Positions 20,908-23,599 of a stretch of 64,000 bases of DNA are shown piece after piece (position 1 is the first letter of the stretch; every line of letters begins with the position of its first letter). Source of the DNA: Escherichia coli (GTDB lineage Bacteria > Pseudomonadota > Gammaproteobacteria > Enterobacterales > Enterobacteriaceae). Where the stretch lies: assembly GCF_044324785.1 (NCBI RefSeq), contig NZ_CP172127.1; one strand, given 5' to 3'. Both the position numbers and the translations under genes were made by a program. A model generated the notes under the pieces. That model did no database searches and was not told the origin of the DNA. It was given only the letters and a program-made list of their open reading frames with translations.

Positions 20908-22554
20908 ATGAAAAAAGTGACTGCCATGCTCTTCTCGATGGCCGTGGGGCTTAATGCCGTTTCGATGGCGGCAAAAGCGAAAGCGTCCGAGGAGCAGGAA
21001 ACTGATGTACTGTTGATTGGCGGCGGCATTATGAGCGCCACGTTGGGGACCTATTTACGCGAGCTGGAGCCTGAATGGTCGATGACCATGGTGGAGCGCC
21101 TGGAGGGGGTCGCGCAGGAGAGTTCGAACGGCTGGAACAACGCCGGAACCGGGCATTCTGCACTGATGGAACTGAACTACACCCCGCAAAACGCCGATGG
21201 CAGCATCAGTATTGAAAAAGCAGTCGCCATTAACGAAGCATTTCAGATTTCCCGCCAGTTCTGGGCGCACCAGGTCGAGCGCGGCGTGCTGCGTACTCCG
21301 CGTTCATTTATCAATACCGTTCCGCATATGAGCTTTGTCTGGGGCGAGGATAACGTCAATTTCCTGCGCGCCCGTTACGCCGCGTTGCAACAAAGCTCGC
21401 TGTTTCGCGGTATGCGTTACTCTGAAGATCACGCGCAGATCAAAGAGTGGGCACCGTTAGTGATGGAAGGGCGCGATCCGCAACAGAAAGTGGCAGCCAC
21501 GCGTACGGAAATTGGTACTGATGTGAACTATGGCGAGATCACCCGCCAGTTAATTGCTTCCTTGCAGAAGAAATCTAATTTTTCGCTGCAACTCAGCAGC
21601 GAAGTCCGCGCCCTAAAGCGTAATGACGATAACACCTGGACCGTCACTGTTGCCGATCTGAAAAACGGCACTGCACAGAACATCCGCGCCAAATTTGTCT
21701 TTATCGGCGCGGGCGGTGCGGCGCTGAAGTTGTTACAGGAATCGGGTATTCCGGAAGCGAAAGACTACGCCGGTTTCCCGGTGGGCGGTCAGTTCCTTGT
21801 TTCGGAAAACCCGGACGTGGTTAATCACCATCTGGCGAAGGTTTACGGTAAAGCATCCGTTGGCGCACCACCGATGTCGGTTCCGCATATCGATACCCGT
21901 GTTCTGGACGGTAAACGCGTCGTGTTGTTTGGGCCATTTGCCACCTTCTCAACCAAATTCCTCAAAAACGGTTCATTGTGGGATCTGATGAGTTCCACCA
22001 CCACCTCAAATGTGATGCCGATGATGCACGTCGGGCTGGATAATTTCGATCTGGTGAAATATCTGGTGAGTCAGGTGATGTTGAGTGAAGAGGATCGTTT
22101 TGAAGCGTTGAAAGAGTACTATCCGCAAGCGAAAAAAGAGGACTGGCGTTTGTGGCAAGCGGGGCAGCGCGTACAGATTATCAAGCGTGATGCCGAGAAA
22201 GGTGGCGTACTGCGTCTGGGTACCGAAGTGGTCAGCGACCAGCAAGGGACTATTGCCGCGCTGCTGGGGGCATCGCCAGGTGCGTCAACCGCCGCGCCGA
22301 TTATGTTGAATCTGCTGGAAAAAGTATTTGGCGATCGCGTTTCCAGCCCGCAATGGCAGGTTACGTTGAAAGCGATTGTTCCGTCTTATGGACGCAAGCT
22401 GAACGGTGATGTAGCGGCAACGGAGCGCGAGTTGCAGTACACCAGCGAAGTGCTGGGGCTGAAATACGACAAGCCGCAGGCAGCAGATAGTACGCCGAAA
22501 CCGCAGTTGAAACCGCAACCCGTTCAAAAAGAAGTGGCGGATATTGCGTTGTGA
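20908..22554 (+). CDS. mqo: Malate:quinone oxidoreductase, 548 aa
   Basis: FAD-binding GxGxxG ([11 protein letters not shown]) with Mqo-family length and sequence; preceded by an AT-rich leader. Confidence 0.92.
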
Positions 22555-22556
22555 TG

Positions 22557-22680
22557 ATGTGCCACATCCGGCATGGTATGCCGGATGTGGCGTATGCTGA
22601 TAAGACGCGCCAGCGTCGCATCAGGCAACCGGCTTGGGCGTTAGATGTCGGATGCGGCGTGACCGCCTTATCCGACCTAC
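22557..22680. repeat. BIME (several REP/palindromic units) between convergent mqo and eco
   Basis: gccggatgtggcg...gataagacgcgcc...gcatcaggc and gtcggatgcggcgtgaccgccttatccgacctac are typical REP consensus units. Confidence 0.7.
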
Positions 22681-22703
22681 GGGGTGCCGCACTTCACGGC
22701 AGT

Positions 22704-23192
22704 TTAGCGGACTACCGCGTTGTCAATTTTCTCTTCCGCCTTCCAGATGCGGTATTTCACATCCACATTGTCTGGCGTATACACCACGATAGGCAGCTTG
22801 CTGTTGTAGCGCAGCATTCCGGCATCGCCCAGATAGGCAGTGACAAATTTCTTCTCTTTTTTGCCATCCGGGCAGGCCATCATCGTGGAAACCGGCGAGC
22901 TAACTTTATCAAAGACGTAATAATCATAGCCCCAGCCTTCCAGCGTTTTGCTTTCCAGCTTCCCGCCGAGACGATGCAAATTGCAGTCGACTTCCAGCGT
23001 CTGACCGATTAACAGTTCTACTTTCAGGGTAGATTCATCTTTTTGCGGGGTTAACTGAATCACCTGACGCTTCATCCCTTTTTCAGCTTGTGGATAAGGC
23101 GCGATTTTTTCCAGTGGCTGGACGCTTTCTGCCGCCCAGGCGGAAGTGGTAGCGAAAGCGGCAAACAATACTGCAGGTAGAATGGTCTTCAT
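22704..23192 (-). CDS. eco: Ecotin (periplasmic serine protease inhibitor), 162 aa
   Basis: [47 protein letters not shown]... The ORF track extends 7 codons upstream; start set at MKTIL. Confidence 0.92.
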
Positions 23193-23451
23193 TTTTTTGC
23201 TTTCCTTCTTCATTTATAGGTTTTCACCGATGATGTCGCTGAAGGTTAACATATTCATCAGATTTATTAATTTGCTTTATGAATAACTTAAAGAACATTC
23301 AGATAATTTTACCTGCTCTTTTAGTGTTAAATTCTGATGAGGGAGCAAACCAGCAGAAATATCTCTGGCGAATTAATCGCTATATAAATATGTTTATAAC
23401 CATTTGAAATGTGAGCAAAAGCCCGTTTTTGCCACGCTTCCCGCCACTCTT

Positions 23452-23465
23452 TTGATCCTGCTACA
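23452..23465 (+). promoter_or_regulatory. Candidate FNR site of the napF promoter
   Basis: TTGATcctgCTACA is centred 20 bp upstream of the NarP site, matching the napF promoter layout I recall. The second half-site is weak. Confidence 0.4.
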
Positions 23466-23470
23466 GGTTT

Positions 23471-23486
23471 TACCCCGATCGGGGTA
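23471..23486 (+). promoter_or_regulatory. NarP/NarL 7-2-7 heptamer pair
   Basis: Perfect inverted heptamers TACCCCG-at-CGGGGTA upstream of napF. Confidence 0.75.
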
Positions 23487-23599
23487 TGCATCTTTGACAC
23501 ATCCTTTAATATCTTAGCGGCTATAAAAATGGCTTATTAATTATGCGGTTTATTTGGTCGCTCTCAATTTTCAGAGCGCGTTAATGATGGAAGGTCAAT

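What the first reader, a model, noticed from the sequence alone, without database searches (positions are those of the whole stretch)
22551..23599. eco is flanked by a BIME array and a long regulatory spacer to nap
About 125 bp of tandem REP units lie between the convergent mqo and eco 3' ends, and a 400-bp AT-rich spacer separates the divergent eco and napF starts and holds the NarP 7-2-7 site and the presumptive FNR site. REP arrays are the preferred targets of the IS type seen at 9307 in this same window, so this is a second potential insertion hotspot, and it is unoccupied here.
Basis: partly seen in the sequence, partly recalled or inferred. Interest (0 to 1): 0.15.

Follow-up and report, generated by a model that had tools for sequence, protein, structure and literature searches.

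The report
Ordinary REP pair and nap promoter
This stretch is a well-known, ordinary part of the E. coli chromosome: one pair of REP hairpins ending the mqo and eco genes, followed by the textbook control region of the nap nitrate-reductase operon. Its only mild point of interest is that longer versions of the same repeat in other strains carry insertion sequences, while this short version does not.

Summary
The window is E. coli strain N3 (100% identity). The 149-bp mqo-eco gap holds a locus-specific 14-bp-stem hairpin, one inverted Z2 REP and one direct Y REP. That makes a single BIME-2 unit, not a tandem array. The 407-bp eco-napF gap is 64% A+T. It carries the perfect NarP/NarL 7-2-7 palindrome, an FNR-like site 20 bp upstream and a ModE-like site, and from the ModE site to napF it is identical to K-12.

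The locus is a 113-bp copy-number polymorphism. In a sample of 59 genomes about 70% carry one unit, as here; K-12 carries six.

The hotspot idea is only partly supported. Among 5,426 complete genomes, IS621 sits in this gap in 26 and IS1397 in 5, plus one rearranged genome. Every occupied allele has 2-4 units. The window's allele is empty and has no IS621 target, because its only Z2 REP has a degenerate tail. IS1397 occupancy, about 1% of carriers, is roughly what an average BIME would get.

Everything here belongs to known kinds, so interest is low.

The parts
20908..22554 (+). mqo, malate:quinone oxidoreductase; stop codon TGA at 22552-22554
   Evidence: ORF; RefSeq annotation of the identical strain N3 record
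22561..22591 (.). Locus-specific perfect palindrome (14-bp stem, 3-nt loop) beginning 6 nt after the mqo stop. Its arms resemble the head of a Y REP (88% identity to 22645-22660).
   Evidence: fold and repeats; exactly one copy per genome, detected in 4,083 genomes
22592..22626 (-). Z2-type REP in inverted orientation, with a degenerate tail (GTATGCTGAT instead of GTAGGCCTGAT)
   Evidence: consensus in PMC11208160
22627..22646 (.). Short (S-type) linker of the BIME-2 unit
   Evidence: same linker repeated in each K-12 unit; BIME-2 definition in PMC3333891
22647..22680 (+). Y-type REP in direct orientation; its CTAC tail ends 23 nt from the eco stop
22685..22701 (.). Small 6-bp hairpin in the terminal linker next to the eco stop
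   Evidence: Fold; coordinates
22704..23192 (-). eco (ecotin), 162-aa reading. RefSeq of this strain extends it to 23213 (169 aa).
   Evidence: NCBIfam NF002987, 265.8 bits
23213..23239 (-). sigma-70 promoter for eco reported by genomic SELEX (GCGACA-15-TATAAA)
   Evidence: PMC3946193; located
23327..23491 (-). yojO, an annotated 54-aa ORF lying across the ModE, FNR and NarP sites
   Evidence: RefSeq annotation; ORF; no NCBIfam family
23378..23401 (.). ModE-like site CGCTATATAAATATGTTTATAACC, about 133 bp upstream of the inferred napF P1 start
   Evidence: Sequence; ModE activation of nap stated in PMC8139620; the position is from my own knowledge of McNicholas and Gunsalus 2002
23452..23465 (.). 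FNR-like site TTGATCCTGCTACA. The left half is consensus and the right half is weak. Its centre is 20 bp upstream of the NarP site centre.
   Evidence: identical in K-12; FNR dependence of napF in PMC9262595
23471..23486 (.). NarP/NarL 7-2-7 site TACCCCG-AT-CGGGGTA, a perfect palindrome
   Evidence: competition between NarP-P and NarL-P at the napF promoter in PMC9262595
23510..23523 (+). Inferred napF P1 -10 hexamer TATCTT (23510-23515) and transcription start near 23523. This is derived by placing the NarP site at -44.5.
   Evidence: Inference and my recollection of Darwin and Stewart 1995 and Stewart et al. 2003
23540..23567 (-). sigma-70 promoter pointing toward yojO and eco (TTGAGA-16-CATAAT)
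   Evidence: Consensus scan, 10 of 12 matches; the same hexamers are listed for yojO by genomic SELEX, PMC3946193
23600..24094 (+). napF, first gene of napFDAGHBC

Best explanation
This is ordinary, previously described E. coli chromosome with two functional halves.

(1) The convergent mqo-eco gap. It is the shared 3' end of mqo and eco. It holds a unique perfect hairpin and one BIME-2 unit, meaning a Z2 REP and a Y REP in inverted orientation. On either transcript these fold into three strong stem-loops. I infer that they act in both directions as transcription attenuators or terminators and as barriers to 3'-to-5' exonucleases, which is the role now best supported for REPs between convergent genes. 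The unit is the minimal and commonest allele of a 113-bp copy-number polymorphism that ranges from 1 to 6 units. Longer alleles add Z2 REPs with intact GTAGGCCTGAT tails. Those added REPs are the ones that IS621 and IS1397 have entered in other strains.

(2) The divergent eco-napF gap. It is the K-12-type nap control region, with a ModE site, an FNR site and a NarP/NarL 7-2-7 site upstream of the nap promoter. It shares the space with sigma-70 promoters that fire the other way toward yojO and eco.

What is shown: the sequence identity of all parts, the copy-number polymorphism, and IS occupancy elsewhere. What is inferred: the terminator or stabiliser role at this particular locus, and the exact nap transcription start.
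For: - The window is 100% identical to strain N3, and mqo, eco, yojO and napF are annotated there.
- The REPs match the published Y and Z2 consensus. Rfam naRNA4 scores above its gathering threshold. The layout of Z2, short linker and Y meets the BIME-2 definition of PMC3333891.
- Both strands fold far better than shuffled sequence. The + strand reaches -76.4 kcal/mol (z = -3.8) and the - strand -75.8 kcal/mol (z = -4.7).
- Gap lengths of 149, 375, 601 and 714-716 bp all fit 149 + 113n.
- Harris et al. 2026 (bioRxiv) report that the model REP325 acts as a partly Rho-dependent terminator and an mRNA stabiliser. They also report that REPs between convergent genes go with higher expression of both genes, and that 78 such REPs lie within predicted bidirectional terminators.
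- The nap region is base-for-base identical to K-12 from the ModE site to the napF start. FNR and NarP-P activate napF and NarL-P competes (PMC9262595). ModE activates and IscR represses (PMC8139620).
- The yojO and eco promoters are reported by genomic SELEX, and one of them was recovered independently by the consensus scan.
Against: - No expression or 3'-end data were available for this strain or this locus.
- None of the hairpins is followed by a T-run on either strand, and the terminator scan found nothing in the gap. Any termination would therefore be non-canonical or Rho-assisted.
- Harris et al. stress large locus-to-locus variance and found no general half-life effect.
- The right half of the FNR site matches the consensus poorly.
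- The -44.5 and -64.5 positions rest on my memory of papers I could not open.
Confidence: 0.8

Rival explanations
1. The gap is an insertion-sequence hotspot, a preferred landing pad for REP-targeting IS elements that happens to be empty in this strain.
For: IS1397 occupies a REP 13 kb away in the same window. The mqo-eco gap carries IS621 in 26 complete genomes and IS1397 in 5, plus one rearranged genome, out of 5,426. IS1397 copies at four loci sit in the loops of both Y and Z2 REPs, so both REPs here have the general form of a target.
Against: All occupied alleles have 2-4 units. None of the single-unit alleles, about two-thirds of genomes, is occupied. IS621 needs ATCAGGCCTAC or ATCGGGCCTAC (PMC11208160), and neither occurs in the window. 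About 6 of roughly 590 IS1397 carriers (about 1%) have a copy here. That is about what one locus among several hundred REPs would receive by chance (584 REPs in K-12). This is a rough estimate. The occupied genomes are probably only a few independent events.
Confidence: 0.15
2. The BIME unit is a gene for a naRNA4-like nucleoid-associated small RNA that works with HU to condense the chromosome.
For: The Rfam naRNA4 model scores 60.4 bits, just above its gathering score of 59.5. naRNA4 is itself one Z2+Y unit of REP325 (PMC4550694 abstract).
Against: The match reflects shared REP sequence, which hundreds of loci have. Harris et al. 2026 found that deleting or overexpressing REP325 or naRNA4 did not change nucleoid volume, that REP-REP contacts were not detectable, and that no stable ternary complex of HU, cruciform DNA and naRNA4 formed. 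No promoter dedicated to this unit was found.
Confidence: 0.04
3. The element acts mainly at the DNA level as a BIME-2 binding and cleavage site for DNA gyrase, relieving the supercoiling produced by convergent transcription.
For: BIME-2 elements are reported gyrase targets (Espeli and Boccard 1997, cited in PMC3333891). The position between convergent genes is where positive supercoils build up; this point is general knowledge.
Against: This cannot be tested from sequence. The allele here has only one unit and its Z2 tail is degenerate. I recall that gyrase activity was characterised on multi-unit BIME-2 arrays.
Confidence: 0.1
4. The hairpin that starts 6 nt after the mqo stop codon lowers mqo translation. 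Terminating ribosomes stall against it and trigger tmRNA rescue.
For: The stem begins 6 nt after the TGA and is very stable. I recall that Liang, Rudd and Deutscher (2015) reported this effect for REPs within about 15 nt of a stop codon.
Against: I could not retrieve that paper. The hairpin is not a canonical REP. No data exist for mqo.
Confidence: 0.15

Closest known systems
BIME-2 elements of E. coli (Z2 + Y REP pairs; Gilson, Bachellier and Hofnung classification; Ton-Hoang et al. 2012)
   Same: Both have a Z2 and a Y REP in inverted orientation with a short linker. Both are extragenic and lie between convergent genes. The same locus is a multi-copy tandem BIME-2 in K-12 (six units, twelve REPs). 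Copy number varies between strains, as already described for BIMEs in general.
   Different: Only one unit is present in this strain. Its Z2 REP has lost the GTAG tail. An extra locus-specific palindrome precedes it.
REP325 / naRNA4 (Rfam RF02564)
   Same: It has the same two-hairpin Z2+Y unit, and the Rfam score is above the gathering threshold.
   Different: REP325 lies inside the yjdMN operon with six units. No evidence exists here for a processed RNA, and the proposed nucleoid role of naRNA4 is itself now disputed.
K-12 napF (aeg-46.5) control region
   Same: It is identical in sequence from the ModE site to the napF start codon. It has the same NarP/NarL 7-2-7 palindrome and FNR site, 20 bp apart.
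   Different: No functionally relevant difference was seen. Five substitutions lie upstream, in the yojO and eco part of the spacer (A1 columns 112, 144, 150, 177, 182), and one (G for A, column 200) lies in the central spacer of the ModE-like site.
IS621 (IS110 family, bridge-RNA recombinase) and IS1397 (IS3 family) REP targeting
   Same: In other strains both elements sit in this very gap, at the expected sub-sites. IS621 is at GTAG|GCCTGAT of a Z2 REP. IS1397 is in a Z2 REP loop with a 4-bp duplication.
   Different: The window's allele is empty and has no IS621 target sequence.

Membership tests
REP / BIME-2 | Imperfect palindromes of about 35 bp that match the Y or Z2 consensus | tested here: met
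   Z2 has 2 differences over 35-36 nt and Y has 3-4 over 34 nt, against the consensus quoted in PMC11208160. Both fold as hairpins.
REP / BIME-2 | Conserved GTAG/CTAC tetranucleotide at the REP tail | tested here: inconclusive
   The Y REP ends in CCTAC, which is intact. The Z2 REP starts GTATGC instead of GTAGGCC, which is degenerate. The same degenerate first Z2 is seen in all five alleles inspected, including K-12.
REP / BIME-2 | One Z2 and one Y REP in inverted orientation separated by a short linker | tested here: met
   Z2 (-) at 22592-22626, a 20-nt linker, then Y (+) at 22647-22680. Definition in PMC3333891.
REP / BIME-2 | Occurs as multiple tandem copies | tested here: not met
   This strain has one unit. 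The same locus has 3, 5 or 6 units in other strains. The locus is therefore BIME-2, but this allele is not an array.
REP / BIME-2 | Extragenic position, typically at 3' ends of genes | tested here: met
   It lies between the stop codons of the convergent genes mqo and eco.
REP / BIME-2 | Binding and cleavage by DNA gyrase | not testable with these tools
   This needs biochemical or ChIP data.
naRNA4 (Rfam RF02564) | Score at or above the family's gathering threshold | tested here: met
   60.4 bits against 59.5, covering the full model 1-77, on the - strand.
naRNA4 (Rfam RF02564) | Expressed and processed as a discrete RNA that binds HU | not testable with these tools
   No expression data are available. 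The function is disputed.
napF control region (NarP/NarL, FNR, ModE) | Inverted heptamer pair with 2-bp spacing (7-2-7) of the TACYYMT type | tested here: met
   TACCCCG-AT-CGGGGTA at 23471-23486, a perfect palindrome. The heptamer consensus is from my own knowledge.
napF control region (NarP/NarL, FNR, ModE) | FNR box TTGAT-N4-ATCAA, 20 bp upstream of the NarP site centre | tested here: inconclusive
   In TTGAT-CCTG-CTACA the left half is perfect and the right half matches 2 of 5. The spacing is exactly 20 bp. The site is identical in K-12, where FNR dependence is established.
napF control region (NarP/NarL, FNR, ModE) | Sequence identity with the experimentally studied K-12 region | tested here: met
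   Columns 201-407 of alignment A1 are identical between the window and K-12.
IS1397 (element at 9307-10738, cited by the finding) | IS3-family two-ORF transposase with a programmed frameshift and terminal inverted repeats | tested here: met
   ORFs at 9349-9879 and 9984-10706. NF033516 transpos_IS3 scores 299.8 bits on the second ORF. The ends are TGAACTGCACCCCAAA... and ...TTTGGGGTTCAGTTCA. RefSeq names 99%-identical copies IS1397.
IS1397 (element at 9307-10738, cited by the finding) | Insertion in the loop of a REP with a short target duplication | tested here: met
   GGCGT-TTAC|IS|TTAC-GCCGC restores a Y REP. Three further loci show the same pattern.
IS621 target site | 11-nt target ATCAGGCCTAC (or ATCGGGCCTAC) with a CT core | tested here: not met
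   Neither sequence is anywhere in the 64-kb window. The Z2 tail reads ATCAGCATAC and the Y tail ATCCGACCTAC. Target specificity is from PMC11208160.

The most novel reading that the evidence does not exclude
BIME-2 copy number at this locus may control access for REP-targeting insertion sequences. In every allele inspected the first Z2 REP has a degenerate tail. One-unit alleles, about two-thirds of E. coli including this strain, would then be intrinsically closed to the bridge-RNA recombinase IS621. Each extra 113-bp unit adds one perfect target and one more IS1397-usable loop. Contraction of the array to a single unit would protect the mqo and eco 3' ends from IS entry and from the IS-mediated rearrangements seen in strains SCU-316 and IH5.
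Probability: 0.35. Interest if true: 0.25.

Novelty: already known. Interest (0 to 1): 0.08.

Why it matters
It matters little. REPs, BIME-2 elements, their copy-number variation between strains, REP targeting by IS1397 and IS621, and the nap control region are all already described.

The modest added value is a concrete natural example. Over 5,426 complete genomes, one BIME-2 locus shows how repeat copy number and a degenerate REP tail determine which alleles present a target to IS621, an element now used as a programmable recombinase. It also shows that such insertions can seed rearrangements.

Two points concern annotation. yojO lies entirely across the nap regulatory sites. The RefSeq start of eco in this strain is probably seven codons too long.

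Tried and rejected
- I tried to open the primary papers on IS1397 (PMC94167, PMC169884), IS621 (PMC166490) and the dual nap promoters (PMC193976). None is held. IS1397 target rules and the -44.5/-64.5 coordinates therefore rest on sequence evidence and my memory.
- A text search for napF with '44.5' and '64.5' returned only an unrelated chemistry paper.
- A search for the Liang, Rudd and Deutscher paper on REPs and translation did not find it.
- NCBIfam has no model for YojO.
- Six fetched IS1397 copies, meant to widen the sample of target sites, fell into only two loci, topB-gdhA and yddE-nhoA.
- 48 genomes have mqo and eco more than 1.5 kb apart. Of these, 26 are explained by IS621, 5 by IS1397 and 2 by rearrangements. 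The remaining 15 or so could not be listed, because the search tool shows only the best or evenly spread rows.
- IS1397 in the opposite orientation in this gap: none found.
- The terminator scan found no canonical intrinsic terminator in the gap. I therefore do not call the hairpins classical terminators.
- I considered and rejected treating the Rfam naRNA4 hit as evidence of an sRNA gene. It reflects REP homology.
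Full report
**Identity of the region.** The 1,451 bases around the finding are 100% identical to the chromosome of E. coli strain N3 (NZ_CP031609.1) and 97-98% identical to essentially all other complete E. coli genomes. RefSeq annotates the following genes there, and the ORF list agrees:
- mqo, window 20908-22554, + strand
- eco, 22704-23213, - strand
- yojO, 23327-23491, - strand
- napF, 23600-24094, + strand

Upstream lies yojI and downstream napDAGHBC.

**The convergent gap (22555-22703, 149 bp).** Read directly, it consists of five parts:
- A perfect palindrome, GCCACATCCGGCAT/ATGCCGGATGTGGC (22561-22591), with a 14-bp stem and a 3-nt loop. It begins 6 nt after the mqo stop codon.
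- A Z2-type REP in inverted orientation (22592-22626).
- A 20-nt linker.
- A Y-type REP in direct orientation (22647-22680).
- A 23-nt terminal linker with a small 6-bp hairpin (22685-22701), ending at the eco stop codon.

The two REPs differ from the published Z2 and Y consensus sequences by 2 and 3-4 positions respectively. Those consensus sequences are quoted in Durrant et al. 2024, PMC11208160. Rfam independently scores 22595-22677 (- strand) at 60.4 bits against naRNA4, a family built from one Z2+Y unit of REP325, just above the 59.5-bit gathering score.

Two details of the description need correcting. First, the REPs are inverted relative to each other, not tandem. Together they are one BIME-2 unit as defined by Ton-Hoang et al. 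2012. Second, the first palindrome is not a dispersed repeat. It occurs exactly once per genome, at this locus only, although its arms resemble a Y REP head.

**The locus is a copy-number polymorphism.** The gap is 149 bp here, 375 bp in strain JNEC-KY204, 714 bp in a K-12 derivative and 716 bp in ET120. All fit 149 + 113n, where the repeated unit is Z2, short linker, Y and a 23-nt linker. I searched with a junction query made of 1,000 bp of mqo joined to 1,000 bp of eco plus spacer and sampled 60 evenly spread rows out of 5,421 genomes. Among the 59 rows with an intact locus:
- 41 have the one-unit size (145-149 bp)
- 13 have six units
- 4 have five units
- 1 has three units

The window therefore carries the minimal and commonest allele, and K-12 carries a long one. 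That BIME-2 copy number varies between strains at a given locus is already stated in the literature. In all five alleles inspected the first Z2 REP has the degenerate tail GTATGCTGAT, while internal Z2 REPs have the canonical GTAGGCCTGAT.

**Testing the hotspot idea.** The element at 9307-10738 is IS1397. It is 1,432 bp long with two IS3-family ORFs (NF033516, 299.8 bits). Its copies elsewhere, 99% identical, are named 'IS3-like element IS1397 family transposase' by RefSeq. It interrupts a Y REP between rcsC and rcsB with a TTAC duplication.

In the junction search, 48 genomes had mqo and eco more than 1.5 kb apart. The first one examined carried IS621, an IS110-family element, in the gap. I then searched with chimeric queries of the form mqo 3' end + IS + eco:
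- IS621 lies in the gap in 26 genomes.
- IS1397 lies there in 5 genomes in one orientation and none in the other.
- In strain SCU-316 an IS1397 at the same site joins mqo to fbaB, which is a rearrangement.
- In strain IH5 the mqo-side BIME is joined to a 5S rRNA gene and another IS3-family element.

In the four genomes inspected, IS621 lies at GTAG|GCCTGAT of the second, third or fourth Z2 REP. This is the known natural target ATCAGGCCTAC with its CT core. IS1397 lies in the loop of the last Z2 REP with a GTCA duplication. Judged by gap length, all 31 intact occupied alleles have 2-4 units and none has one.

The window's allele has no IS621 target. Neither ATCAGGCCTAC nor ATCGGGCCTAC occurs anywhere in the 64 kb. 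IS621 itself is absent from the window. Strain N3 does show three further places that match the IS621 part of the query (row H117).

IS1397 copies at four loci use the loops of both Y and Z2 REPs, in either orientation. The REPs here therefore have the general form of an IS1397 target. Their loops (GCGTGACCGCC and GCGCCAGCG) differ from the loops seen occupied.

About 583-593 genomes carry a near-identical IS1397, judged from best places at 99% identity or above. Roughly 1% of carriers therefore have a copy in this gap. Listed carriers show 6-11 matching places for the query per genome (one of them the mqo-eco locus itself), and K-12 has several hundred REPs (584). On those numbers, about 1% is what an average locus would receive. 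This is a rough estimate, not a test. The absence of occupied one-unit alleles is suggestive only, because the occupied genomes probably descend from a handful of events.

**Likely function of the gap.** Both transcripts would fold into three strong hairpins. The + strand reaches -76.4 kcal/mol (z = -3.8) and the - strand -75.8 kcal/mol (z = -4.7) against dinucleotide shuffles. No T-run follows any stem, and the terminator scan found nothing in the gap. The most recent experimental work, Harris et al. 2026 (bioRxiv), reports the following:
- REP325 acts as a partly Rho-dependent attenuator and an mRNA stabiliser.
- About 60% of REPs lie between convergent genes, and these go with higher expression of both neighbours.
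- 78 of them fall within predicted bidirectional terminators.
- The proposed nucleoid-condensing role of naRNA4 with HU could not be reproduced.

I therefore take the gap to be a bidirectional 3'-end element for mqo and eco. This is an inference for this locus. The Rfam hit reflects REP homology, not an sRNA gene.

**The divergent gap (23193-23599).** It is 407 bp and 63.9% A+T, against 48% for the window. It holds:
- TACCCCGATCGGGGTA at 23471-23486, a perfect 7-2-7 palindrome.
- TTGATCCTGCTACA at 23452-23465. Its centre is exactly 20 bp upstream. The left half fits the FNR consensus and the right half is weak.
- CGCTATATAAATATGTTTATAACC at 23378-23401, which is ModE-like.

From the ModE site to the napF start codon the sequence is identical to K-12, so the K-12 literature applies directly. 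FNR and phospho-NarP activate napF and phospho-NarL competes for the same site (PMC9262595). ModE activates and IscR represses (PMC8139620). Placing the NarP site at -44.5 and the FNR site at -64.5, as I recall from Darwin and Stewart 1995 and Stewart et al. 2003, puts the P1 start near 23523, behind a TATCTT -10 hexamer at 23510-23515.

The annotated 54-codon ORF yojO runs on the opposite strand across all three sites. Genomic SELEX reported a sigma-70 promoter for it (TTGAGA-16-CATAAT), which my consensus scan also found at 23567..23540, and another promoter for eco (GCGACA-15-TATAAA) at 23239..23213. The -10 hexamer of the eco promoter overlaps the ATG that RefSeq uses as the eco start in this strain (23213). 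The classical 162-codon start at 23192 is therefore the more plausible one.

**Verdict.** Every component belongs to a known kind, and the region is close to textbook. The hotspot interpretation is partly right: the locus is a natural target of two REP-specific insertion sequences. In this strain, however, the allele is the short form that has never been seen occupied and cannot be recognised by IS621. Novelty: already known. Interest: low.

Noticed in passing
window 9307-10738: A complete 1,432-bp IS1397 is inserted in the loop of a Y REP between the convergent 3' ends of rcsC and rcsB, with a TTAC duplication (9303-9306 and 10739-10742). A second Z-like REP follows at about 10768-10805.
   Followed up: yes
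window 23327-23491 (-): The annotated small ORF yojO lies entirely across the ModE, FNR and NarP/NarL sites of the nap promoter. No NCBIfam model exists for it. In strain 2017-02-2CC its 3' part is strongly diverged and RefSeq calls it 'hypothetical protein'. Its conservation may reflect the regulatory DNA rather than a protein.
   Followed up: partly
window 23193-23239: RefSeq starts eco at 23213 (169 aa) in this strain. The -10 hexamer of the eco promoter reported by SELEX (23218-23213) overlaps that ATG. The 162-aa start at 23192, used in other records, is more plausible.
   Followed up: partly
L008 (strain SCU-316) 4701-6615; L009 (strain IH5) 4701-6980: In two genomes the mqo-side BIME is a rearrangement junction. 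SCU-316 reads mqo | IS1397 | fbaB. IH5 reads mqo | 5S rRNA gene | IS3-family element | kgtP.
   Followed up: partly
row H30 (C43(DE3), NZ_CP011938.1); totals: In the listed C43(DE3) record only 3% of the query matches, and in the junction search 5 of the 5,426 genomes gave no match at all. This suggests the eco-nap region is deleted in a few genomes.
   Followed up: no
window 42803-42836: A solitary Y-type REP is the only other consensus-level REP in the 64-kb window. No IS621 target sequence occurs anywhere in the window.
   Followed up: no
strain N3 chromosome outside the window (row H117): Three further places in the N3 chromosome match the IS621 part of the chimeric query. This strain probably carries both REP-targeting IS types, yet its mqo-eco BIME is empty.
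   Followed up: no
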